DNA of 64,000 nt from NCBI GenBank assembly GCA_026395995.1, contig JAPLXQ010000006.1, forward strand, positions 18,983 through 82,982. The letters run 5' to 3'. Numbering within the stretch: position 1 is the stretch's first letter; every line of letters starts with the position of its first letter. The stretch comes from Candidatus Nomurabacteria bacterium (GTDB lineage: Bacteria; Patescibacteriota; Minisyncoccia; Phycocordibacterales; UBA9973). Made by a program: the position numbers and the translations under genes. The notes beneath the pieces were generated by a model that worked only from the letters and a program-made list of their open reading frames with translations, had not been told where the DNA came from and searched no databases. This document shows positions 920-13,757 of this stretch, piece by piece.

Positions 920-3019
920 ATGGAACCAACACAATTCCCAGAAAATAAAGATATTACATATTTAGGTGAGACTACTTTTAGAAACAAAAATCAACTTTTT
1001 GGTATTAAAAGAAAAGATCGTCGCCAACATGTCTATGTTCTCGGAAAATCTGGAACAGGTAAATCAGCCTTACTTACAAATATGGTTATGCAAAACATTA
1101 TCAATGGAGATGGTGTTTGTGTTGTCGATCCTCACGGAGAATTGGTTGAAGATATCGTAGCGGCTATTCCTCCACATCGTATGAAAGATGTCGTCTACTT
1201 TAATCCAGCTGATACCGATTATCATATTGGTCTAAATGTACTCGAACTTATTGATCCTCAATACAAGCATCTTGTCGCATCAGGACTGATGGGAATCTTC
1301 ACAAAAATTTGGGCAAATGTTTGGTCTGCTCGTATGGAATACATTTTGAACAATGCAATTTTGGCTTTGCTTGAGACTCCAGGCACGACACTCCTTGGTG
1401 TCACTAGAATGCTCGTAGATAAACCATATAGAAAAACAATTGTTGATAATATCAAAGATCCTATCGTAAAAGGTTTTTGGGTAAATGAATATGACACTTG
1501 GCAAGATAAATTTCGTAATGAAGCTATTACTCCGATTCAAAACAAGGTCGGACAATTTCTTTCTAGCTCTATTGTTCGTAATGTCGTCGGTCAATCAAAA
1601 AGTACAATCAATCTTTTTGAAATAATGAATGAAAGAAAAATTTTCCTTGTAAACGTTTCAAAGGGACGTATCGGTGAAGACAATTCTGCTTTGCTCGGAG
1701 GTATGCTAATTACAAAAATCCAGCTCGCTGCGATGGAGCGTGTTCGTATTCTAGAAGATCAACGTAAAGACTTTTATTTATATGTCGACGAATTCCAAAA
1801 TTTCGTGACAGACTCTTTTGCAAACATTCTTTCTGAAGCTAGAAAATATCGTTTAAATTTGACTGTCGCACACCAATACACTGCTCAGCTCGTATCTGCA
1901 AATGGTTCAGCTGTACGTGATGCTGTTTTCGGTAACGTCGGAACGATGATTGTGTTTCGTGTCGGTGCTGAAGATGCAGACTTTTTGGAAAAAGAATTCG
2001 AACCAGAATTTATGGCACAAGATATTGTGTCTTTACCAAACTATCGAATTTATTTGAAGCTTATGATTGACGGAGTCACATCTCGTCCATTTTCTGCTAA
2101 AACTTTACCACCTATGGTGACAAAGAGAAATTTACAAACAGAACAAGAAGTAATAGATATTTCCAGAAAACTTTATGCTCGACCTAGAGAAATTGTCGAA
2201 GGTGAAATTAGTGAATGGAGTGGAATGTTTTTAAATCTTTCCGCTGCTACAGCACCAAAAGGTGGAAAAGAAATAGAACAATTTCCAGTGAAATGTTCTA
2301 TTTGTGCCAAAGATACTCTTGTACCATTCAAGCCAGAACCAGGACGACCTGTCTATTGTAAAGATTGTATTGCCAAAATGAAAGAAGGTACTTTGAAACC
2401 TTTACCTTTTACAGCACCCAAAATAGTAGAAGAAAAGAAAATTGAAGCTCCTATTCAAAAAACTATAAATGAAGTAAAAATACCTGTAATCACTCCGCCA
2501 ATACCAGCACAAATAGCGTTTAAACCAGCTTATAAAGATCCATTAAGTCCTACACCAGCACCAATTGCACCAAAACCAGCATATCAAGCTACTCAAAACC
2601 AGCCTTTTAAACCAGCTCTACAACAACCAATACAAACTATCCAAAAACCAATACCTCAAAATAATGCCTTGAAAGATGTTTTAGCTAAAGCTATGACTGA
2701 AAAGAAAGTCGAGCAACCAGTACAACCAAAAATATTTATTCCAACAGTTCAACCCACACCAGCACCTGTTTCTTTGGATTCATTAAAGAGTCAGACAAAT
2801 TCTTTACCAAATAATTTTCCAAAAGATAAAGGAGCTAGTAGTGATGATATGAATAAATTTAAAGATTTTATTACTGAAAAAGTATCACAACCACAAACAC
2901 CACCCACCACTCCTCAACAAAAAGAAGAAATAAAAACCTCACCCCAACTCTCTCCTGAAAAGGCGAGGGAGACAGTCAAAGAAGTCCCTGAAGACGTCTT
3001 GCTAAAAATCTTAGAATAA
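920..3019 (+). CDS. P-loop NTPase of the HerA/FtsK/TraD-like (DUF87-type) superfamily with a C-terminal CxxC...CxxC zinc ribbon and a long Pro/Gln-rich low-complexity tail
   Basis: Walker A GKSGTGKS near the N-terminus; Walker B-like hhhhDE ([11 protein letters not shown]). No N-terminal TM helix. C-terminal [32 protein letters not shown] zinc-ribbon motif, then repeats FKPAYKDP / [20 protein letters not shown]. Confidence 0.6.
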
Positions 3020-3696: not shown

Positions 3697-4554
3697 ATGA
3701 AAAAAGGGAGGATATTTTTCTTAATATTTCTATTAGCTTTTTCTTTTAGCGATAGAATTTCATTTGCGCAAAATTCTTCAAATGCAGGATTTATACCTAG
3801 TAATATTTGGTATTCCAAAGATCCTTTTGAGGAAGGAGATAATGTTAAAATTTATACCCTGGTTTTCAATCCTGATTCAAGGCAACTTTCAGGTTCAGTT
3901 TTATTTTTTGACAATGATGTATTACTAGGTAAAAAGACTTTTGTCGCTGGAGCGAGCCAGGTAGCCCAAGTCGGTCTATCTTGGAAAGCTACACTCGGTG
4001 ATCATGTGATTTTTGCTAAAATAGAAAATACTAAATTTTTAACTTCTTCAGGTTCCTCAGTCGATGTTTATTTGGCTGAAAATGAATCTGATAAAAGTAA
4101 ACGTACAGTCAATAAAAAAATACTCAATCAAGTAAACGACAGCATCTCTAATGCTAAAGACACTGCTCAGTCTGTAGCCACATCAGCTGATACACAGGCC
4201 ACTAGTATCGCTAATACAATCAAAGAGAAAACGCCAGATTTTATTGCCAAACCAATTTTGTATGTAGCCAATGGTATAGAATCATTCCGTGAATCGACAG
4301 ATAATAAAATTTCAAATACAAAAGATAAAATAAAAGCTGATATTCAAAAGATAAAAGATAGCGTCAATGGTACTACTGCTAATGCAAAAACTTCTGGTAA
4401 GAATGCATTGAGTAAGCCATTTGAATATGTAAAATTATTCTTTACTGCCATATTGTCTGCTATTTTAGATTTTAAAATATTATTCTATGGGCTTTCTGCT
4501 CTGCTTTTATTTTTTATTTTTAGATTTATTTGGAGGAAAATTTTTGGGAAATAG
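3697..4554 (+). CDS. Hypothetical secreted / membrane-anchored protein (N-terminal signal peptide, C-terminal hydrophobic helix)
   Basis: MKKGRIFFLIFLLAFSFSDRISFAQ signal-like N-terminus; Ser/Thr/Asn/Lys-rich body; C-terminal hydrophobic segment LFFTAILSAILDFKILFYGLSALLLFFIF. Confidence 0.45.
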   Translation: MKKGRIFFLIFLLAFSFSDRISFAQNSSNAGFIPSNIWYSKDPFEEGDNVKIYTLVFNPDSRQLSGSVLFFDNDVLLGKKTFVAGASQVAQVGLSWKATLGDHVIFAKIENTKFLTSSGSSVDVYLAENESDKSKRTVNKKILNQVNDSISNAKDTAQSVATSADTQATSIANTIKEKTPDFIAKPILYVANGIESFRESTDNKISNTKDKIKADIQKIKDSVNGTTANAKTSGKNALSKPFEYVKLFFTAILSAILDFKILFYGLSALLLFFIFRFIWRKIFGK

Positions 4555-6619: not shown

Positions 6620-7096
6620 ATGAAAAAGAGATCTTTTTTAAACAAAGTTGGTGTTTTTTTTGGTGGAATTTTTGCAACCAAAGCGAGTTCGTATAGTTTC
6701 GATTATTTACTTTATCCATTAGCTATCCATTATCTTGGACTAGAATGGGGATTTGTAGTCATGCTGTTACTATCTTTTGTTTTAAATTATCTTTTCATCC
6801 TTCTGTATAATTCAACACAGAGAGATATCTTTGGTTTTGAAAAACTAAAAGAATTAAAAGATAAAACAACAAAAGAAAGTAAATCTTTTATCGCCCGATT
6901 AGTGGGTATGGGTTACGTGATGACTTTCATTGCATTGTCATTCTATGATCCATTCTTTGCAGTATTGTGGTTCCGGAAATCTACCAAGTTTGATAAAATG
7001 ACCAAAAGTGATTGGAAAATCTTAACGATTAGTACAATCATCGGAAATCTTATTTGGGCACCGATGGTATTCGGAGCACTTAAAATCTTCGAATAA
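6620..7096 (+). CDS. Hypothetical integral membrane protein
   Basis: Multiple hydrophobic helices (VGVFFGGIFATKA, FVVMLLLSFVLNYLFILLY, VMTFIALSFYDPFFAVLWF, ILTISTIIGNLIWAPMVFGAL). No recognisable catalytic motif. Confidence 0.4.
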   Translation: MKKRSFLNKVGVFFGGIFATKASSYSFDYLLYPLAIHYLGLEWGFVVMLLLSFVLNYLFILLYNSTQRDIFGFEKLKELKDKTTKESKSFIARLVGMGYVMTFIALSFYDPFFAVLWFRKSTKFDKMTKSDWKILTISTIIGNLIWAPMVFGALKIFE

Positions 7097-7107
7097 GTAA
7101 AACTAAA

Positions 7108-7137
7108 TTGCTCAGCTAATTAGCTGAGCAATTTTTA
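7108..7137 (+). terminator. Rho-independent terminator: 12-bp perfect palindrome TTGCTCAGCTAATTAGCTGAGCAA followed by TTTTTATTT
   Basis: Perfect hairpin read directly 12 nt after the stop of the 6620..7096 gene, followed by a T-tract. Confidence 0.8.
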
Positions 7138-7322
7138 TTTAATCAAAAATTAAACTCCACTGTGGATGGAATTGAACTGTTAAATTTATGGATTTTTGGA
7201 GATAGGTATCTACTCCGAATTCCATTAATACAATTACTTCCAAGTGTTCACTGATTTCTGTACAATTTTCGATACCAACATAATAATATCGATTTTGTTT
7301 TTCTTCTTTTTGTAATGATTGC

Positions 7323-7481
7323 TCAAAAAAGAAGTATACATCCCAATCTTTTTTTTAGGAAAAGTCCGGCCATTCCGCAAATTCCATCACAAATCCCTTC
7401 AATTGGTAATTTATGTTCTGTCTTCTGTGCTTCACAATTAATACAAATTAAAGAAAATAAGGTAAAGATCACTTTTTTCAT
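7323..7481 (-). CDS. Small (52 aa) Cys-containing secreted-peptide candidate, absent from the supplied ORF track because it is under 60 aa: MKKVIFTLFSLICINCEAQKTEHKLPIEGICDGICGMAGLFLKKRLGCILLF
   Basis: ATG at 7481 and TGA at 7323 on the minus strand, translated by hand. Signal-peptide-like N-terminus, a GICDGICG motif and an amphipathic C-terminus. It sits in the ORF-free gap upstream of the YcaO locus. Confidence 0.3.
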   Translation of the reverse strand: MKKVIFTLFSLICINCEAQKTEHKLPIEGICDGICGMAGLFLKKRLGCILLF

Positions 7482-7538
7482 AATATTAATTTTTAAAACT
7501 TTGTTTATAGTTTATCATTGTTTATCTAAAAGTCAAGA

Positions 7539-7568
7539 TTGACACTGTTTATTTTTATATAGTATCAT
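7539..7568 (+). promoter_or_regulatory. Candidate sigma70-type promoter (TTGACA - N18 - TATCAT) upstream of the small-peptide ORF at 7629
   Basis: TTGACA at 7539-7544 and an AT-rich -10 region at 7556-7568, about 60 nt upstream of the ATG. Confidence 0.3.
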
Positions 7569-7628
7569 TATTATGAATAAACTCATGTAGTGTGAGAGTT
7601 CATTAAGTTCATTTAATCTCTAAAAAAG

Positions 7629-7730
7629 ATGAAAAAGAAAATCTTTAAATCCGTAAAGTTATCTGCCCCAAAAATTGCAATTCCTAAATCAGGAAATTGT
7701 GGTGGAAACTCATGTAAATGCAAGCACTGA
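7629..7730 (+). CDS. 33-aa peptide MKKKIFKSVKLSAPKIAIPKSGNCGGNSCKCKH: candidate RiPP precursor (Lys-rich leader plus Gly/Ser/Cys-rich C-terminal core). Absent from the ORF track
   Basis: Hand translation from ATG 7629 to TGA 7728-7730. A candidate promoter lies upstream and a perfect terminator hairpin directly downstream. Core composition (G/N/S/C) is typical of azol(in)e-type precursors. It is about 0.9 kb upstream of the RRE-YcaO gene on the same strand. Confidence 0.4.
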   Translation: MKKKIFKSVKLSAPKIAIPKSGNCGGNSCKCKH

Positions 7731-7750
7731 TTGCACATAATGCATTGTAA

Positions 7751-7782
7751 AATACACCTATAAATTTAGGTGTATTTTTTTT
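7751..7782. terminator. Bidirectional rho-independent terminator (ACACCTA taaattt TAGGTGT + T8) shared by the convergent small peptide (+) and HExxH peptidase (-) genes
   Basis: Hairpin and T-tract read directly at 7754-7782; A-rich on the other side. Confidence 0.7.
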
Positions 7783-8632
7783 ATTTTCTAAAAAAACTAA
7801 ATATTTGTTTCGGATTTATTTTAAAAAGTTCCAGAAGGGTATTTCCTGACCTACTTATAACTTCGTCAATGAGCCAATAACCAAGACTATATCCATACCA
7901 ATTTTGTAGATTTTTTGTTCCAAAAAAATACGAAAGATAGAAATCAATATTACTATCATCAATAAAAAGATTTAAATCTTTTTCAGATATTATATTAAGT
8001 TCTTTGATAGCATCTTCTTTGTTTAAAGTAGTAGACCATGGGGCACGATTACCACCTACAATAAATTCTCTAAAATGCTCAGCCAATCCTTCATTTACCA
8101 TTCCATCTAAAATGGAATTCCATGAATATTGCGATGTATATGCAAGATGAGCATATTCGTGAGGTATAGTTTCCCTTAAGGATACTTGCCATTTCTCATT
8201 TGTTGTATCAATGAGTAAATACATAATATTTCCTTCAACTATAAAACCATTTACCCCATCTAAGTCTTCACTTGCTTCTTTGTTATAAAGCGGAAGTATA
8301 TAAACGTTAATATTTTTTGTAACAGAAACTGCATTAAAAGATTTTTTAATAATAACTTCAACTATTTTTGAAATAGTTTCAATATGTTCAAATATGTTTA
8401 TGTAAAAAGATTGTTCTGATTCACCAAAAATTTTACGACCGAGATCGTTTTTTAACTTCTCTTCGTTTGAATACTCACCAAGACTAAAATTCGGAGTATT
8501 TTTTATTTGTGTAAAAATGTCCTCTAAAGAAGAAGTTTTTGATTCTGAAGAATGAGGTTGTATATAAAAAAAATCTACTTTTACAGATTTTGATAAATAT
8601 TGACTTTTTATTTTTTCATTGTTATTGTTCAT
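7781..8632 (-). CDS. Putative Zn-dependent peptidase (HExxH...E gluzincin-like; DUF2268-like), cytoplasmic
   Basis: IPHEYAHLAY (HExxH) followed by NEGLAEHF, which supplies the third zinc-ligand Glu. 283 aa, no signal peptide. Divergently transcribed from the YcaO gene with only a 32-bp gap. Confidence 0.55.
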   Translation of the reverse strand: MNNNNEKIKSQYLSKSVKVDFFYIQPHSSESKTSSLEDIFTQIKNTPNFSLGEYSNEEKLKNDLGRKIFGESEQSFYINIFEHIETISKIVEVIIKKSFNAVSVTKNINVYILPLYNKEASEDLDGVNGFIVEGNIMYLLIDTTNEKWQVSLRETIPHEYAHLAYTSQYSWNSILDGMVNEGLAEHFREFIVGGNRAPWSTTLNKEDAIKELNIISEKDLNLFIDDSNIDFYLSYFFGTKNLQNWYGYSLGYWLIDEVISRSGNTLLELFKINPKQIFSFFRK

Positions 8633-8664
8633 ATAAATAAAGTGAACCTTAAAAAATATAATCC

Positions 8665-10161
8665 ATGAAAAATAATGAATATTTCCCTCGATTTATCGCC
8701 AAATGGATTAAACATCCTCAAGGCATACAAGTATATGCTCTTAAAGAAAGCATAACACTTGAAGAAATGAATGTACAGGCTATTTCTTCAATAGAAAAAA
8801 TATGTTCAGGTAAGAACAATCTTGATGAAGTGATCCGTAAATTGTCACTTAAATGGGACAAGGATGATATAGTGACATTGATTTATCTTTTCATTGAAAA
8901 GCAAATTATTGTTAATAATAAAGAAGTAAATCCTTTAGTTAAGGGTTGTAAGTTAAAAAAAATAGAGACCCTTTTACCAAACCAAGAAACAGTTGATATT
9001 TTAAATCTACCATATCAAGTTATTTACGGGAGAGCTGGTTCTGATATTTGGTCTTCAGGGAAAGATATAGATATTAATATTGCTACAAATAAAATGATTT
9101 CTGAAATTGCTGAATGGAATGCATGGAATTTTCCAAAAAAAGAATGTACTCTTTTTGGGTCATTTGAAAGTCTTGCTAGTAAAAACATACTAGTACCACC
9201 TAGTGATATTATTAATTATGCTGATTTTCAATATAGTGATATTTTATTTCCTTATAAAATATTCAATCCACTATCAAATTATAATTGGATTTGTGCAAAA
9301 AATTTTATAAATAACGAGAAGGTTTTTATATTCTCTGAACATATTCTTTTTACGCAAAATCCAATATATGTTGCTAATACATCGTCTGGTTGTTCAGCTC
9401 ATGTTAATAAAAATAAAGCTATTCATCATGCTGTGCATGAATTAATCGAAAGAGACGCTTTTATGATTTACTGGTTAAATAAGTTAGATCGACCTAGAAT
9501 TAATTTAAATTCATTACCAGAAAGTATTATATTTCGAGTAAAAAATATTCAAAATCTTGGATACCGTCTTACTATTAATGACATCAGTATGGGGATTGCT
9601 CCAGTTATTATGGTTGCTTTGCAAGATATAGATGGTTGTTATGTAACTTCTGGATTAGCTTCATTGTATGACTTCGAGGCCATGTTTAGCTCTGCATTAT
9701 CAGAAGTCGAGGTTAGTCTACTTCATATTTTGAATAGTAAAAAGATTGTACAAAAAAAATTGAAACCAGAAACAGTGAAATCTCTTGTTCAACATGAAGA
9801 GTTACATCAGCAAATAATGTATCAAAAAGAAACTTCATTCATATTTGAATCAAGTAAAGAAATTTCTTTTAAAAACTTTATGATAGCTTATAAGGATGAA
9901 AAAAATATCATCAAAACGATATTAGACAAAGGTTTTGATTTGTATGTTGTTGATGCAACAGATTGGGAGATTGATGTTTTACTACCAGAACATCGTCATA
10001 TTGTTCGAGCTATTATTCCAGGTCTTGTACCGTTATCTTTTGGTTATCACAAAGAACCATTAGGTATGTCTAGGATTTATGAAGTGCCTGTTCAGTTAGG
10101 TTTTCGTAGTAATACTATCTCGTATCAAGAGCTGAATAGATTTCCTCATCCGTTTAATTAA
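8665..10161 (+). CDS. RRE (PqqD-like) - YcaO fusion protein; predicted ATP-dependent peptide cyclodehydratase/backbone-modifying enzyme of a RiPP-type pathway
   Basis: N-terminal ~100 aa fits the PqqD/RRE pattern (ITLEEMNVQAISSIEKICSGKNNLDEVIRKLSLKWDKDDIVTLIYLFIEKQIIV). YcaO motifs follow: YGRAGSDIWSSGKDIDINIATNKMISEIAEWNAW and SSGCSAHVNKNKAIHHAVHELIERDAF (the ExxER ATP/Mg site). The C-terminus ends ...RFPHPFN, a PxP-type Pro-rich tail like that of azoline-forming YcaOs. Confidence 0.75.
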   Translation: MKNNEYFPRFIAKWIKHPQGIQVYALKESITLEEMNVQAISSIEKICSGKNNLDEVIRKLSLKWDKDDIVTLIYLFIEKQIIVNNKEVNPLVKGCKLKKIETLLPNQETVDILNLPYQVIYGRAGSDIWSSGKDIDINIATNKMISEIAEWNAWNFPKKECTLFGSFESLASKNILVPPSDIINYADFQYSDILFPYKIFNPLSNYNWICAKNFINNEKVFIFSEHILFTQNPIYVANTSSGCSAHVNKNKAIHHAVHELIERDAFMIYWLNKLDRPRINLNSLPESIIFRVKNIQNLGYRLTINDISMGIAPVIMVALQDIDGCYVTSGLASLYDFEAMFSSALSEVEVSLLHILNSKKIVQKKLKPETVKSLVQHEELHQQIMYQKETSFIFESSKEISFKNFMIAYKDEKNIIKTILDKGFDLYVVDATDWEIDVLLPEHRHIVRAIIPGLVPLSFGYHKEPLGMSRIYEVPVQLGFRSNTISYQELNRFPHPFN

Positions 10162-10169
10162 AACAACTT

Positions 10170-10201
10170 ACACCCAGCCAAATATCATCTGGGTGTTTTT
10201 A
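10170..10201 (+). terminator. Rho-independent terminator after the YcaO gene (ACACCCAG ccaaatatcat CTGGGTGT + TTTTTA)
   Basis: 8-bp perfect stem plus T-run, read directly 9 nt after the stop codon. Confidence 0.65.
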
Positions 10202-10202
10202 T

Positions 10203-11072
10203 TTGCTGATTTTTACAGGGGATTATGATATTATTAATACTATGTCAGAAGAAAATCAGAAAATTTCAATCGGGGATTATGATACTATAATGAATGATAG
10301 AAATATCTTTAATCAGATAGTGTATACACCGCTTTCTGAAGCGCTTAGGCTTCTCGAAGAAAGACAAAAAGATCCAGTATTAATGGCAAAAATTGAAGAA
10401 TTACTTAATGGTGATATTCCAGAAGTTTTGAAACCTATTGGTAAATATGCAGTTCAATTTAGACAAATTGCAACACCCAACAATGAATGTAAGTATTTTC
10501 TAAAGATTTCTAATAATTTCGGCTTAACTCCAACACTCATGGAATACCATAGTGATAAATTTTCTTCTAATAATTTTTTTAAACGTTCCCTAGGTCAATT
10601 ACACATACAAGGACCTATAAATAAAAAAAATGAATACCAGATTGAAAAAATTACCATTATGGATTTTAATAAACATAATGGTAAAAAATTAAATGAAGTT
10701 GTTACCCATTGGAACGAATCAATCATTGATTTCCATAGAAAATTATTTAATATATGTGACTTAAATACTAAAGAATGTAATTTTTATGACACTTCGGAAT
10801 GGATTAATAATCACGGATCTAGTCCAGAGGAATATTATAAACAATTCCTTATTTTATTTGTTTGTCATGGAATTTTATTTGAAAATTTTCTTTTAAACAA
10901 AGAAGAAAGTTCTTTTATTAAAAATGTAATTTTACCAGCATTAGAAGATGTTATAAATTTAACAGGAGTAAAACCACTAATTGTACCCGGTTCTCCTATT
11001 GATATTGAAGATGAAAATTTCTGGGTTCTATATCATCCAAATATTAAGACTATAATTCAAAATGAAAAATAA
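10203..11072 (+). CDS. Hypothetical protein (289 aa) with no recognisable motif; first gene of a tightly packed 4-gene unit with the SET protein, a Cys-rich protein and a histidine kinase. The true start may be the internal MSEENQK
   Basis: ORF only. Overlaps the next gene by 11 nt. Asn/Lys/Ile-rich. No assignable domain by eye. Confidence 0.35.
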   Translation: MLIFTGDYDIINTMSEENQKISIGDYDTIMNDRNIFNQIVYTPLSEALRLLEERQKDPVLMAKIEELLNGDIPEVLKPIGKYAVQFRQIATPNNECKYFLKISNNFGLTPTLMEYHSDKFSSNNFFKRSLGQLHIQGPINKKNEYQIEKITIMDFNKHNGKKLNEVVTHWNESIIDFHRKLFNICDLNTKECNFYDTSEWINNHGSSPEEYYKQFLILFVCHGILFENFLLNKEESSFIKNVILPALEDVINLTGVKPLIVPGSPIDIEDENFWVLYHPNIKTIIQNEK

Positions 11073-11616
11073 AACACCAAAGTTAAAAAAGAAAAGTACA
11101 GGTAAATATGGTAATGGTTTTTACGCTGATGAAGACATAAAAAAGGGGACTATAATCCATATGTTTACAGGGAAAAGAATGGATGTAAAAGAATTAGTTC
11201 AAAAAGTTAATTCTAACAAAGAAAATATTGATGACCCATTTCAAATAGGCAAAAGAACATATATTGACTTAGACGAAGTATCTAGAACATTTAATCATAG
11301 TTGTGACCCTAATTGTGGGATAAGAAAAGTTGGTGAAATGTTTTCCTTAAGAGATATTAAAAAAGGAGAAGAAATTACTTATGATTATTCATTAACTATA
11401 GCACCTACAGAATGGAAAATGAAATGTTTGTGTAAAAGTAAAAATTGTCGTAAAATATTAGGAGATATAAATTCTGTATCAAAAAAACAATTAGATTCTT
11501 ACAAGAAATTTGGAGCTTTGCAAAACTACATGAAGAAACTATTAAAAGAAATAGAAAGTGGTAATTACAAAGTACCAAAATATGAAATTGAAGCTTTAAA
11601 CAGTCTTAAAATATAG
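11062..11616 (+). CDS. SET-domain protein lysine methyltransferase (with post-SET Cys cluster)
   Basis: GNGFYADEDIKKGTII (SET N-region), RTFNHSCDPNCGIR (the canonical NHSCxPN motif), EEITYDYS (ELxF/YDY motif) and post-SET CLCKSKNCRKILG. Confidence 0.8.
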   Translation: MKNKTPKLKKKSTGKYGNGFYADEDIKKGTIIHMFTGKRMDVKELVQKVNSNKENIDDPFQIGKRTYIDLDEVSRTFNHSCDPNCGIRKVGEMFSLRDIKKGEEITYDYSLTIAPTEWKMKCLCKSKNCRKILGDINSVSKKQLDSYKKFGALQNYMKKLLKEIESGNYKVPKYEIEALNSLKI

Positions 11617-11667
11617 TAAGTTATTTTTTATAAATATTAAATATGTTAAAATAATAATAAGTTAAAA

Positions 11668-12024
11668 ATGAAAAAAAATACCAAAGCCATTATTGTAATA
11701 ATCCCGATTTTATTTTTAGTAATATTTAGTTATAGGTATTATCAATATATAATTCAAAAAAACTATATATTAGAAGTTAATACTATTTGTAATTCTGAAA
11801 TAGAAAACTGTTTTGATTCTTCAGATTTAAGTTTTGGTCAAAATCCTTATAAAAAAGTAAGAGTTTTAGATAAATATGCTCCTAAATGTCTCGAAGAACA
11901 TAATTGTGATAGCTTTTATTGTCCTGTTAGCCTAGGTAAAGATAAATGTGAAATTACTTACTGTTCAGATGAAACAAAAGTCGATGGGGAAGGTTGCACA
12001 AATAAAATAATAACTAATCAATAA
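11668..12024 (+). CDS. Small Cys-rich secreted or membrane-anchored protein (10 Cys in the ~85-aa extracytoplasmic part)
   Basis: N-terminal hydrophobic anchor AIIVIIPILFLVIFSY. Then CNSEIENCFDSSD...KCLEEHNCDSFYCPVSLGKDKCEITYCSDETKVDGEGC, consistent with a disulfide-rich fold. Confidence 0.45.
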   Translation: MKKNTKAIIVIIPILFLVIFSYRYYQYIIQKNYILEVNTICNSEIENCFDSSDLSFGQNPYKKVRVLDKYAPKCLEEHNCDSFYCPVSLGKDKCEITYCSDETKVDGEGCTNKIITNQ

Positions 12025-12026
12025 AA

Positions 12027-13757
12027 ATGCTATCTCATTTCATAAATATTCAATATTGTTATACATATCTTATTGACCAGACACCTGTAAGTCTTTTGTT
12101 ATACTCACATATACCTACAGCTATACTTGCTTTATTTTTTGGTATTTTTATTTTTCTAAAAAATAGAAGCCAGCAAGGTTTTGCTCTGTTAATGATTTGT
12201 ATATCTTTTGCTCTTTGGTGTCTTTTTGATCTGAGTTCTTGGTTTTCTTTTATTGGATCTGGGAATACCATGCTTGCATGGTCACTATTAGATTTAATTT
12301 CATTAATTATGTTCTTCTTTTCTTATTACTTTCTATATACTTTTATTACAGAAAAGGATTTTCCTATTTGGCAATGGTTTGTTGGATTTATTTTAATACT
12401 ACCTACGGCCGTTTGGACATTGTTAGGTAAAAATTTACCTAACTATGATTCAAATAACTGTCAAGCAATAGAAAATACTAAAATTACTGGTTACCTATTT
12501 TATATTTTAGGTCTATTTATAATAATTTCTTCTGTATTTTCTATATATCAGTATATGAAAAATAAAGAAAATTTTGAAAAAAGAAAAAAGATTTTACTAG
12601 TTGGGAGCGGTATAATATTATTTTTAATTTTCTTTTTTTCAGCATTATTAGCTGTTAATTTATTAGCAAATAGTGATTCATCTGGATATGTCTATAACTA
12701 TGAAATTTATGGTTTGTTTGGAATGCCGATATTGCTTATATTCTTAGGTTATCTTGTTATAAAATTCAAGGCATTTAATGTAAAACTTATTTCAGCTCAA
12801 GCATTAATATTTGCCTTGATAACTTTGATAGGTTCTCAGTTTTTGTTTATTACAAGTACAGTAAACTTTATATTAAATGGGGTCACATTTATCGGAGTAG
12901 TAATTTTTGGAATTTTCCTTATTGAATCTGTTAAAAAAGAAGTAAGACAAAAAGAATATTTAGAAAAACTAACAATAGAATTAAACGATTCAAAAATGCG
13001 ACTTGAGGATACAAATATCAAGCTTGAAAGTGCAAATGACAAACTTCAATCTCTCGATAAATTAAAGACAGAGTTCCTTTCACTCGCTTCACACCAGCTT
13101 CGTAGTCCTTTGACAGCTATTACAGGCTATACATCGATGCTACTCGATGGATCATTTGGAAAAATGGATGACAAGCAGAAGGAAGCTATTGACCGTGTGT
13201 ATCAATCTAGTCGTCATCTCTCTACTACAGTGGAAGATTTGTTGAACGTGACAAAGATCGAGCAAGGTGGAATGCAATACGTGATGGCAGATTTTGATTT
13301 TGAAAAAGCTGCTCAAGATTTAGCCAAAGATTTATCCGTCACTGCTGAGAAAAAAGGTTTGAAGCTCACTTTCAAGACAGATAAAAAATCTCCATATACA
13401 GTAAAAGGTGATATGGAAAAAATCCGTCAGGTTATTTTGAATTTTATAGATAACTCTATTAAATATACGAAAAAGGGAAGTATTCATGTACTTATATCAA
13501 AAGATGAAGATAAGAAAAAAATTCGTCTTTCTATTACCGATACAGGTATGGGTATGACTCCAGAGATAAAAGCAAAATTATTCCAAAAATTCTCTCGTGC
13601 TGAAGGAGCAAAAATGAATGCTGGAGGTTCTGGTCTCGGTCTCTATCTAGCAAAGAAAATCATTGAAGAAGGGCATCATGGTGCTGTAGGTGTCGATTCT
13701 GATGGTACAGACCTAGGTTCCACCTTCTGGATGGAATTGGATGAGGCTACAAACTAA
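12027..13757 (+). CDS. Sensor histidine kinase with N-terminal multi-pass (7TM-type) membrane domain, HisKA and HATPase_c; no cognate response regulator in the window
   Basis: About 7 hydrophobic helices in the first 300 aa; a coiled-coil linker; the H-box FLSLASHQLRSPLTAITGY; the N-box NFIDNSIKYT; G-boxes DTGMGM and GGSGLGLYLAKKI. Confidence 0.85.
   Translation: MLSHFINIQYCYTYLIDQTPVSLLLYSHIPTAILALFFGIFIFLKNRSQQGFALLMICISFALWCLFDLSSWFSFIGSGNTMLAWSLLDLISLIMFFFSYYFLYTFITEKDFPIWQWFVGFILILPTAVWTLLGKNLPNYDSNNCQAIENTKITGYLFYILGLFIIISSVFSIYQYMKNKENFEKRKKILLVGSGIILFLIFFFSALLAVNLLANSDSSGYVYNYEIYGLFGMPILLIFLGYLVIKFKAFNVKLISAQALIFALITLIGSQFLFITSTVNFILNGVTFIGVVIFGIFLIESVKKEVRQKEYLEKLTIELNDSKMRLEDTNIKLESANDKLQSLDKLKTEFLSLASHQLRSPLTAITGYTSMLLDGSFGKMDDKQKEAIDRVYQSSRHLSTTVEDLLNVTKIEQGGMQYVMADFDFEKAAQDLAKDLSVTAEKKGLKLTFKTDKKSPYTVKGDMEKIRQVILNFIDNSIKYTKKGSIHVLISKDEDKKKIRLSITDTGMGMTPEIKAKLFQKFSRAEGAKMNAGGSGLGLYLAKKIIEEGHHGAVGVDSDGTDLGSTFWMELDEATN

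What the first reader, a model, noticed from the sequence alone, without database searches (positions are those of the whole stretch)
7629..7730. Unannotated 33-aa peptide with Lys-rich leader and G/N/S/C-rich core: candidate YcaO substrate
MKKKIFKSVKLSAPKIAIPK-SGNCGGNSCKCKH has the two-part look of a RiPP precursor. Its three Cys residues are each preceded by G, N, S or K, as in azoline-forming substrates. It has a TTGACA-type promoter about 60 nt upstream and a perfect terminator hairpin 20 nt downstream. It lies on the same strand as the YcaO gene 0.9 kb away and was missed by the 60-aa ORF cutoff.
Basis: partly seen in the sequence, partly recalled or inferred. Interest (0 to 1): 0.65.

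Follow-up and report, generated by a model that had tools for sequence, protein, structure and literature searches.

The report
Conserved YcaO precursor peptide gene
The unannotated 33-codon ORF is a real, conserved gene that almost always sits beside a YcaO peptide-modifying enzyme and a zinc protease in tiny-genome (CPR) bacteria, so it is very probably the precursor of a small, previously undescribed cysteine-derived modified peptide.

Summary
The ORF at 7629..7730 (+) encodes MKKKIFKSVKLSAPKIAIPKSGNCGGNSCKCKH. The promoter-like site, the terminator hairpin and the distance to the YcaO gene are all as described.

The ORF is a real gene. Eleven distinct homologues (32-37 aa) were found in other CPR metagenome contigs. 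Each is convergent with a DUF2268 Zn-peptidase gene that is divergent from an orthologous YcaO gene (43-54% identity). A DNA search for the core alone (GNCGGNxCKCxH) gave 4 metagenome hits, all beside DUF2268. All 15 third codon positions of the core vary, against 4 first and 3 second positions. All 11 invariant residues use synonymous codons.

Best reading: a minimal three-gene cassette for an azoline peptide. The RRE binds the KK-x-F-x-x-V-K-V leader, the YcaO makes thiazolines and DUF2268 trims the leader. The chemistry is inferred, not shown. The nearly invariant core hints at a conserved role such as metal binding rather than antibiotic diversification.

The parts
7539..7568 (+). Promoter-like site for the peptide gene, TTGACA-18 nt-TATCAT. 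It predicts a 5' UTR of about 55 nt.
   Evidence: 11 of 12 consensus matches. Such sites are not enriched over shuffles in this AT-rich region, so this is only suggestive. Similar promoter-like boxes precede the homologues in L003 and L004.
7629..7730 (+). Precursor peptide gene (33 aa plus stop): MKKKIFKSVKLSAPKIAIPKSGNCGGNSCKCKH.
   Evidence: the ORF; homologues in the same position; codon-position pattern; the only true hit among 1.84 billion representatives is a 33-aa homologue.
7629..7688 (+). Putative leader, residues 1-20 (MKKKIFKSVKLSAPKIAIPK). It holds the conserved K-K-x-(L/I/M)-(F/Y)-x-x-(V/I)-x-V motif and a Pro/Ala/Lys linker. The boundary with the core is inferred.
   Evidence: Alignment A4. 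Mean pairwise identity is 42% for the leader and 84% for the core. A similar KKF..(V) motif occurs in sister-clade peptides.
7689..7727 (+). Putative core, residues 21-33 (S-GNCGGNSCKCKH). Cys24, Cys29 and Cys31 are the candidate cyclodehydration sites, and the C-terminal His is invariant.
   Evidence: G22 and C24 are nearly invariant. N23, G25, G26, K30, C31 and H33 are invariant. The middle Cys29 is Gly in L012/L013.
7749..7786 (.). Intrinsic-terminator hairpin (12-bp perfect stem, 6-nt loop) plus a T-tract. It lies between the convergent peptide and DUF2268 genes.
   Evidence: (-16.4 kcal/mol, z = -4.06). An equivalent hairpin follows the peptide gene in every homologous locus.
7781..8632 (-). 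DUF2268 gluzincin-type Zn-metallopeptidase (283 aa, HEYAH-x18-E, no signal peptide). It is the candidate leader peptidase.
   Evidence: Pfam PF10026, 7.1e-28. H158, E159, H162 and E181 are invariant. The AF2 model has pLDDT 91. The nearest folds are lugdulysin (M30) and M1 aminopeptidases, including the lanthipeptide peptidase EryP, but these matches are weak. It is adjacent to the YcaO in all loci.
8665..10161 (+). RRE-YcaO fusion (498 aa). It is the candidate ATP-dependent cyclodehydratase.
8665..8919 (+). N-terminal RRE-like domain of the YcaO protein, about residues 1-85 (strands followed by three helices).
9067..10161 (+). YcaO catalytic domain, about residues 135-498. It has invariant acidic motifs E147-x2-E150 and E259-x2-E262-R-D, and a C-terminal FPHPF(N).
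   Evidence: Invariant columns in A2. The alignment to the C-termini of TruD and LynD...P(M)PF, is.

Best explanation
The ORF is the precursor gene of a ribosomally made, post-translationally modified peptide, produced by a three-gene cassette of peptide, DUF2268 peptidase and RRE-YcaO. Shown: the peptide is a conserved protein-coding gene that co-occurs with these two enzymes. Also shown: the YcaO belongs structurally to the azoline-forming branch and has a leader-binding RRE fold fused to it. Inferred mechanism: the RRE domain binds the N-terminal leader (the K-K-x-L/I-F-x-x-V-K-V motif, probably as an added beta-strand). This tethers the C-terminal core GNCGGNxCKCxH to the YcaO active site. 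There ATP activates the amide carbonyl preceding each Cys, and the thiol attacks it to give a thiazoline. Cys24 and Cys31 are certain candidates. Cys29 is optional, because one lineage has Gly there. This locus has no dehydrogenase, so the rings would stay as thiazolines. The sister clade with a fused SagB-type dehydrogenase would make thiazoles. The cytoplasmic gluzincin DUF2268 then removes the leader, giving a peptide of about 12-13 residues that ends in His. The core is nearly invariant while the enzymes have diverged to about 45-55% identity, and no exporter or immunity gene is conserved. The product therefore probably has a conserved, target-constrained role such as metal binding by thiazoline N, thiol and His, or signalling. 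It is probably not a fast-evolving bacteriocin. This last step is speculative.
Against: There is no biochemical or expression evidence, and the chemistry is inferred by homology only. The YcaO scores below the curated SagD-family cutoff, 156.9 against 219.25 bits. Characterised azoline-forming YcaOs normally need an E1-like or Ocin-ThiF-like partner domain, and none is present here beyond the RRE. The RRE assignment rests on a predicted fold, with no significant sequence-level hit. The fold matches for DUF2268 are weak (TM 0.36-0.46) and its role as leader peptidase is a guess. One close DUF2268 homologue (L021, 60% identity) has no peptide downstream, although its YcaO side is cut off by the contig end. 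An invariant core is atypical for LAP-type antibiotics. The peptide gene is separated from the YcaO by an opposite-strand gene, so co-transcription does not support the link.
Confidence: 0.7

Rival explanations
1. The peptide is the YcaO substrate, but the chemistry is not Cys cyclodehydration. The alternatives are backbone thioamidation, amidine or macroamidine formation (as in bottromycin, klebsazolicin and streptamidine), and ATP-dependent peptide-bond cleavage as reported for the cyanobactin-type YcaO MusD.
For: All YcaOs share the same amide-activation step, so fold and sequence cannot fully fix the nucleophile. MusD (7u58), described as having ATP-dependent peptidase activity, is among the top structural and sequence hits. 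The usual E1-like partner of azoline-forming enzymes is absent. The middle Cys is dispensable in one lineage. The score is below the SagD-family cutoff.
Against: Neighbour annotation shows no TfuA or sulfur-delivery gene in any locus. Amidine-forming standalone YcaOs lack RREs (own knowledge). The sister clade carries a fused SagB-type dehydrogenase, whose only known role in such systems is azoline-to-azole oxidation. Two Cys residues are invariant. The C-terminal P-x-P-F motif matches that of azoline formers.
Confidence: 0.15
2. The peptide is a genuine small protein that the YcaO does not modify. It could be a Cys3-His metal-binding micro-protein, or a substrate or regulator of the DUF2268 peptidase, with the YcaO acting on another target.
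For: The C-terminus C-x4-C-x-C-x-H resembles a metal-binding knuckle and is nearly invariant, as expected for a structural or metal site. The peptide is physically closest to DUF2268 and shares a terminator with it. No exporter is conserved.
Against: The YcaO carries a dedicated leader-binding RRE fold and has no other conserved candidate substrate nearby. DUF2268 without YcaO lacks the peptide (L017/18). A YcaO fusion without DUF2268 (L025) still has a small ORF with a weak, tentative resemblance to the shared leader (KKFEW..V), read by eye from one contig. The two-part pattern of a variable but motif-bearing leader and a constrained core is that of a RiPP precursor.
Confidence: 0.08
3. The ORF is a chance reading frame in a non-coding intergenic region or small-RNA locus lying between a promoter and a terminator.
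For: The ORF is very short and has no Shine-Dalgarno sequence in the window. Gene callers skipped it in most loci. Promoter-like sites are at background frequency in this AT-rich DNA.
Against: The amino-acid sequence is conserved while every third codon position varies, and alternative frames contain stops. Clear GGAGG or AAGGAG ribosome-binding sites precede the homologues in L002, L005, L008 and L009. The genome as a whole rarely uses Shine-Dalgarno sequences. No Rfam family reaches its threshold.
Confidence: 0.02

Closest known systems
Cyanobactin heterocyclases (LynD, TruD, PatD) with PatE-type precursors
   Same: These are the best sequence and fold matches to the YcaO domain, including the extreme C-terminal P-x-P-F motif. 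An N-terminal RRE recruits a leader, and Cys is converted to thiazoline without an obligatory oxidase.
   Different: Cyanobactin enzymes are about 750-780 aa, with a vestigial E1-like domain between the RRE and the YcaO domain. Here the RRE is joined almost directly to YcaO (498 aa). The conserved neighbourhood has no PatA/PatG subtilisin proteases, no macrocyclisation, no recognition-sequence cassettes and no hypervariable multi-core precursors. Identity is only about 16%.
Linear azol(in)e-containing peptides (LAPs/TOMMs), for example microcin B17 (McbBCD), plantazolicin and heterocycloanthracins
   Different: There is no separate E1-like (C) or Ocin-ThiF (F) partner, no dehydrogenase in this clade and no ABC exporter or immunity gene. 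The score is below the SagD cutoff. The core is nearly invariant across lineages rather than diversified. The hosts are CPR/Patescibacteria.
Uncharacterised RRE-nitroreductase(SagB)-YcaO fusion proteins (P0014-P0019 and the 752-aa protein of L019)
   Same: This is the nearest sister clade, at about 30% identity across both the RRE and YcaO domains. It shows the same association with DUF2268 and with a convergent Lys-rich-leader, Cys/Gly-rich-core peptide.
   Different: A dehydrogenase domain of about 240 aa is inserted between the RRE and YcaO, so azoles rather than azolines are expected. The cores differ (KSCNSGGSNKCRH; CRSGGGGNGKCGGKCSK).
M1-family Zn peptidases that remove class III lanthipeptide leaders (AplP, EryP)
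   Same: They have the gluzincin HExxH-x18-E catalytic motif. EryP appears among the fold matches of the DUF2268 model. They provide a precedent for a cytoplasmic Zn peptidase trimming a RiPP leader (own knowledge).
   Different: DUF2268 is a 283-aa single domain, compared with about 850-aa multi-domain M1 enzymes. The structural similarity is weak (TM about 0.4). No DUF2268 protein has been linked to RiPPs in the searchable literature.
Conserved-core RiPPs that act as cofactors or metallophores (PqqA/PQQ, MftA/mycofactocin, methanobactin)
   Same: They are tiny precursors whose C-terminal core is far more conserved than the maturation enzymes, and they lack a dedicated immunity gene. The comparison rests on own knowledge.
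   Different: Their enzymes are unrelated (radical SAM, MbnBC). No evidence here bears on a cofactor or metal-binding function.

Membership tests
YcaO-dependent azol(in)e RiPPs (LAP/TOMM-type) | A YcaO-superfamily ATP-dependent cyclodehydratase encoded at the locus | tested here: met
YcaO-dependent azol(in)e RiPPs (LAP/TOMM-type) | Passes the curated SagD-family model (TIGR03604) | tested here: not met
   TIGR03604 is the best NCBIfam hit, but at 156.9 bits it is below the cutoff of 219.25.
YcaO-dependent azol(in)e RiPPs (LAP/TOMM-type) | Pro-rich extreme C-terminus typical of azoline-forming YcaOs | tested here: met
   The C-terminus ...NRFPHPFN aligns with the C-terminal ...P(M)PF of TruD and LynD. 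F493, P494, H495 and P496 are nearly invariant across the family and the sister clade. The motif's functional meaning comes from own knowledge (Dunbar et al. 2014).
YcaO-dependent azol(in)e RiPPs (LAP/TOMM-type) | An E1-like (C protein) or Ocin-ThiF-like (F protein) partner, separate or fused | tested here: not met
   Only about 135 residues precede the YcaO domain: the RRE plus a short linker. No ThiF/E1-type gene appears in any conserved neighbourhood.
YcaO-dependent azol(in)e RiPPs (LAP/TOMM-type) | A RiPP recognition element (RRE) for leader binding | tested here: met
YcaO-dependent azol(in)e RiPPs (LAP/TOMM-type) | An FMN-dependent SagB-type dehydrogenase (needed for azoles, not azolines) | tested here: not met
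   tblastn with the fused relatives finds no nitroreductase domain at the locus or anywhere in the 64-kb window. The domain is present as a fused insertion in the sister clade.
YcaO-dependent azol(in)e RiPPs (LAP/TOMM-type) | An adjacent short precursor with a leader and a Cys/Ser/Thr-rich core | tested here: met
   The 33-aa ORF 7629..7730 is conserved in all orthologous loci and has two or three Cys residues in the last 10 residues.
YcaO-dependent azol(in)e RiPPs (LAP/TOMM-type) | Azoline or azole heterocycles actually present in the product | not testable with these tools
   This needs expression and mass spectrometry.
Cyanobactins | PatA/PatG-type subtilisin proteases or macrocyclase, and precursors with RSI-RSIII recognition sequences | tested here: not met
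   No such genes appear in any of the loci. The peptide has no flanking recognition cassettes.
Thioamitides / TfuA-YcaO thioamidation | A TfuA partner gene adjacent to YcaO | tested here: not met
   No TfuA family is listed for any neighbour in 10 loci. TIGR03266 (McrA thioamidation) scores only 44.5 bits against a cutoff of 365.
DUF2268 (PF10026) predicted Zn-dependent proteases | Match to PF10026 above the gathering score, with an intact HExxH...E metal site | tested here: met
   The match scores 97.9 bits against a cutoff of 23.6. H158, E159, H162 and E181 are invariant in 30 homologues.

The most novel reading that the evidence does not exclude
The cassette makes a small thiazoline-and-His peptide, from the core GNCGGNxCKCxH, with a conserved physiological role such as a metallophore or metal chaperone, a redox cofactor or a host-symbiont signal in genome-reduced CPR bacteria. 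It would be made by the most minimal azoline synthetase known, an RRE fused directly to YcaO that works without any E1-like partner, and released by a DUF2268 peptidase acting as a new type of RiPP leader protease.
Probability: 0.2. Interest if true: 0.75.

Novelty: new variant of a known kind. Interest (0 to 1): 0.55.

Why it matters
YcaO genes in CPR/Patescibacteria genomes have been flagged by automated tools, but without substrates. One study even interpreted them as McrA thioamidation factors (PMC12153355). This work pairs one such YcaO lineage with a concrete, conserved precursor and a conserved protease, which gives a three-gene system of about 2.5 kb that can be tested directly by heterologous expression. 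If the RRE-YcaO fusion is active on its own, it would be a compact model for how leader recognition potentiates cyclodehydration without an E1-like domain. It would also assign a first function to a DUF2268 protein. The near-invariant core suggests a product with a conserved cellular or interspecies role in organisms whose secondary metabolism is almost unknown.

Tried and rejected
The exhaustive phmmer search was used instead. It gave one true 33-aa homologue and two low-complexity false hits.
- Pfam and NCBIfam gave no hit for the peptide.
- Rfam on 7100..7900 gave only sub-threshold matches.
- Literature searches for DUF2268+YcaO and DUF2268+RiPP returned 0 papers. A search for 'GNCGGN' hit only an unrelated DNA methylation motif. 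Papers on CPR and RiPPs or YcaO do not describe this system. The RRE-Finder paper does not mention it.
- A viral-contig scan with a relaxed core pattern gave 0 hits.
- Other candidate substrates or partners in the window are not conserved in any related locus and were dropped. These were the 52-aa Cys-rich ORF 7323..7481(-), the 158-aa membrane protein, the 289-aa unknown, the SET protein and the 118-aa Cys-rich protein.
- The 52-aa gene called upstream in L003 is unrelated.
- The Pfam scan of the YcaO N-terminal domain gave nothing significant, so the RRE assignment rests on fold only.
- PDB sequence search with DUF2268 gave nothing meaningful.
- The genome contigs, metagenome contigs and the look-up of encoding contigs quotas are exhausted, so the sister clade was sampled at only three lineages.

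Full report
**1. The observation**

The plus-strand ORF at 7629..7730 encodes MKKKIFKSVKLSAPKIAIPKSGNCGGNSCKCKH.
- The strongest sigma-70-like site nearby is TTGACA-18-TATCAT at 7539..7568. It ends 60 nt before the ATG. Such sites are not enriched in this AT-rich stretch overall.
- A perfect 12-bp hairpin at 7749..7778, followed by eight T, starts 18 nt after the stop codon. It folds at -16.4 kcal/mol, z = -4.06.
- The hairpin also abuts the stop of a convergent gene (7781..8632, minus strand), so it may act in both directions.
- The YcaO gene (8665..10161) is on the peptide's strand, 935 nt away, but that opposite-strand gene separates them.
- No Shine-Dalgarno sequence precedes the ATG. Only 5 of 44 long ORFs in the window have one, and many have a TGnTATAAT box directly before the ATG. 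Its absence here therefore says nothing.
- The window is about 99% identical to a Candidatus Nomurabacteria MAG contig. NCBI names the two neighbours 'DUF2268 domain-containing putative Zn-dependent protease' and 'YcaO-like family protein'. The exact peptide sequence is absent from a 15-billion-protein collection.

**2. Is it a gene?**

A scan of species-representative genomes with the YcaO protein found a Saccharibacteria MAG (L002) whose YcaO is 48% identical. At the equivalent position it has a 37-aa ORF, MKTLKNKKLYSSVSVRRPKKAAPKTGNCGGNGCKCGH, preceded by GGAGG.

A search of 5.8 billion proteins found only 13 close YcaO relatives, at 43-54% identity. Contexts were retrieved for these relatives. 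Contexts for DUF2268 relatives were retrieved as well.

Every lineage in which the DNA beyond DUF2268 is available has a homologous 32-37-aa ORF. It is convergent with DUF2268 and on the YcaO strand. The lineages are L002, L003, L004, L005, L007, L009, L012/13, L015 and L016.

As an unbiased converse test, a degenerate DNA pattern for the core alone (GNCGGNxCKCxH) was scanned against 241 million metagenome records.
- It gave four hits. All lie directly beside a DUF2268 gene, with YcaO present wherever the contig reaches.
- In the window the pattern occurs once, against 0 expected by chance.

Across eight distinct coding sequences, the last 15 codons vary at 4 first, 3 second and 15 third positions. 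All 11 invariant residues are encoded by more than one synonymous codon. The other frames contain stops. A hairpin terminator follows the ORF in every locus, and four loci have clear ribosome-binding sites. Rfam finds no RNA family at threshold. The ORF is therefore a protein-coding gene under strong purifying selection.

**3. Anatomy of the peptide family**

- The N-terminus carries a conserved K-K-x-(L/I/M)-(F/Y)-x-x-(V/I)-x-V motif.
- A Pro/Ala/Lys-rich linker follows (APKxAAPK/Q).
- The C-terminus is x-G-N-C-G-G-N-x-C-K-C-x-H-stop.
- Mean pairwise identity is 84% in the last 12 residues and 42% in the preceding 20. The enzymes are only 43-61% identical.
- One lineage (L012/13) has GNCGGQGGKCRH. 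The middle Cys is therefore dispensable, while the first Cys, the last Cys and the terminal His are fixed.

**4. The partners**

*YcaO.* The protein (498 aa) matches Pfam YcaO. Its best NCBIfam hit is the SagD cyclodehydratase family, although below the curated cutoff.
- Its best solved relatives by sequence are the cyanobactin heterocyclases TruD, MusD and LynD, aligned right to the C-terminal P-x-P-F.
- This domain has no significant Pfam hit, so the RRE assignment is at fold level only.
- There is no E1-like domain, and no SagB-type dehydrogenase occurs anywhere in the window.

*DUF2268.* The protein (283 aa, no signal peptide) has an invariant HExxH-x18-E motif. Its model (pLDDT 91) weakly resembles gluzincin peptidases: lugdulysin and M1 aminopeptidases, including the lanthipeptide leader peptidase EryP.

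*Other neighbours.* No other neighbouring gene is conserved between loci. The cassette sits in a different genomic context in each genome. In the window it lies in a stretch of lower GC, 25-31% against 35-41% upstream.

**5. The sister clade**

The next-nearest YcaOs (about 30% identity) align to both the RRE and the YcaO domains but have a nitroreductase (SagB-type) domain inserted between them.
- In L019/L020 such a fusion is divergent from a DUF2268 gene (43% identity). Convergent with that gene lies MKKKMFTAVKVTSKVHENIVKSCNSGGSNKCRH.
- In L022-24 the fusion is followed by DUF2268 and then a convergent ORF, MKAPKKFSWAATVRKLPTAGSRTFQTQCRSGGGGNGKCGGKCSK.
- In L025 the fusion is followed by a 53-aa ORF with a similar KKFEW..V segment and a Ser/Cys-rich tail, with no DUF2268 on the contig. 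This last resemblance is weak.
- Conversely, a DUF2268 homologue at 41% identity without YcaO has no such peptide (L017/18).
- One close DUF2268 homologue (L021, 60% identity) has no peptide downstream. Its upstream side is cut by the contig end.

The peptide therefore tracks the YcaO. A fused azoline oxidase in the sister clade is the strongest indirect evidence that the chemistry is Cys (or Ser) cyclodehydration.

**6. Mechanism**

*Shown:* a conserved triad of precursor-like peptide, RRE-YcaO and Zn peptidase.

*Inferred:*
- The RRE binds the leader motif.
- The YcaO uses ATP to convert Cys24 and Cys31, and usually Cys29, to thiazolines.
- With no dehydrogenase present, the rings stay as azolines.
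- DUF2268 removes the leader.

*Speculative:* the near-invariant core, the terminal His and the lack of a conserved exporter or immunity gene point to a conserved function, such as metal binding or signalling, rather than an antibiotic arms race.

*Rivals:*
- A different YcaO chemistry: thioamide, amidine or MusD-like cleavage.
- An unmodified metal-binding micro-protein tied to DUF2268.
- A chance ORF, which is essentially excluded.

**7. Comparison with known systems, and novelty**

The system works like a linear azol(in)e peptide or cyanobactin-type heterocyclisation system. It fails several membership features:
- it scores below the SagD cutoff;
- it has no E1-like or Ocin-ThiF partner;
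- it has no dehydrogenase;
- it has no cyanobactin proteases.

Nothing in the searchable literature links DUF2268 with YcaO or RiPPs, or describes this peptide. CPR YcaOs have only been noted generically. I classify it as a new variant of a known kind. It is a well-supported and experimentally tractable finding of moderate interest.

Noticed in passing
window, whole (for example starts at 3697, 25045, 50669(-), 48896(-)): Only 5 of 44 long ORFs have a Shine-Dalgarno-like 4-mer. Many have a TGnTATAAT extended -10 box ending fewer than 10 nt before the ATG, which suggests widespread leaderless mRNAs in this 33%-GC genome.
   Followed up: partly
window 7323..7481 (-): This 52-aa ORF, MKKVIFTLFSLICINCEAQKTEHKLPIEGICDGICGMAGLFLKKRLGCILLF, has a signal-peptide-like start and six Cys residues. 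It is divergent from the peptide promoter. It is not conserved in any related locus and has no Pfam hit.
   Followed up: partly
window 7105..7134: A 13-bp perfect palindromic hairpin lies after the 158-aa membrane-protein gene (6620..7096). It scores as a terminator on both strands. There is a weak sub-threshold Rfam hit to BSnc120 at the same place.
   Followed up: no
window 10203..12024: Downstream of the YcaO are a 289-aa protein with no family, a SET-domain methyltransferase that overlaps it (11062..11616) and a 118-aa secreted Cys-rich protein (11668..12024). None is conserved next to the cassette elsewhere. L016 also has a SET/AdoMet_dc gene about 5.6 kb from its peptide, which may be coincidence.
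   Followed up: partly
window 7000..12800: The cassette and its downstream neighbours lie in a stretch of 25-31% GC, against 35-41% in the cell-wall genes just upstream. Together with the different genomic context in every genome, this suggests a mobile or recently acquired segment.
   Followed up: no
L016 5733..5739: The YcaO gene of this locus is split by a single frameshift at about residue 80, into an 80-aa RRE part and a 321-aa YcaO part, while the peptide and DUF2268 are intact. This is either a pseudogene or an assembly error. A MatE transporter gene lies next to the peptide here.
   Followed up: partly
L012 1499..1663 / L013 680..859: The variant precursor MKTKKLYTSVAVKRPNGVAQQSGNCGGQGGKCRH has the middle Cys replaced by Gly and Asn replaced by Gln. 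Gene callers extended it to 54-59 aa from an upstream ATG.
   Followed up: yes
P0049 (1.4-kb Logan contig): In this protein the first roughly 187 residues are identical to the L013 DUF2268, and the rest is a SPASM-like Cys-rich domain (PF13186). It is probably a chimeric assembly rather than a real fusion.
   Followed up: no
L021 133..1070: A close DUF2268 homologue (60% identity) is followed within 98 bp by a SIMPL-family gene, with no peptide ORF. The YcaO side is lost at the contig end. It is the only exception found to the peptide-DUF2268 pairing within the close clade.
   Followed up: partly
window 920..3019: This 699-aa P-loop protein has a C-terminal Zn-ribbon-like CxxC...CxxC motif and a long Pro/Gln-rich low-complexity tail. 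It was seen while listing ORFs and not analysed.
   Followed up: no
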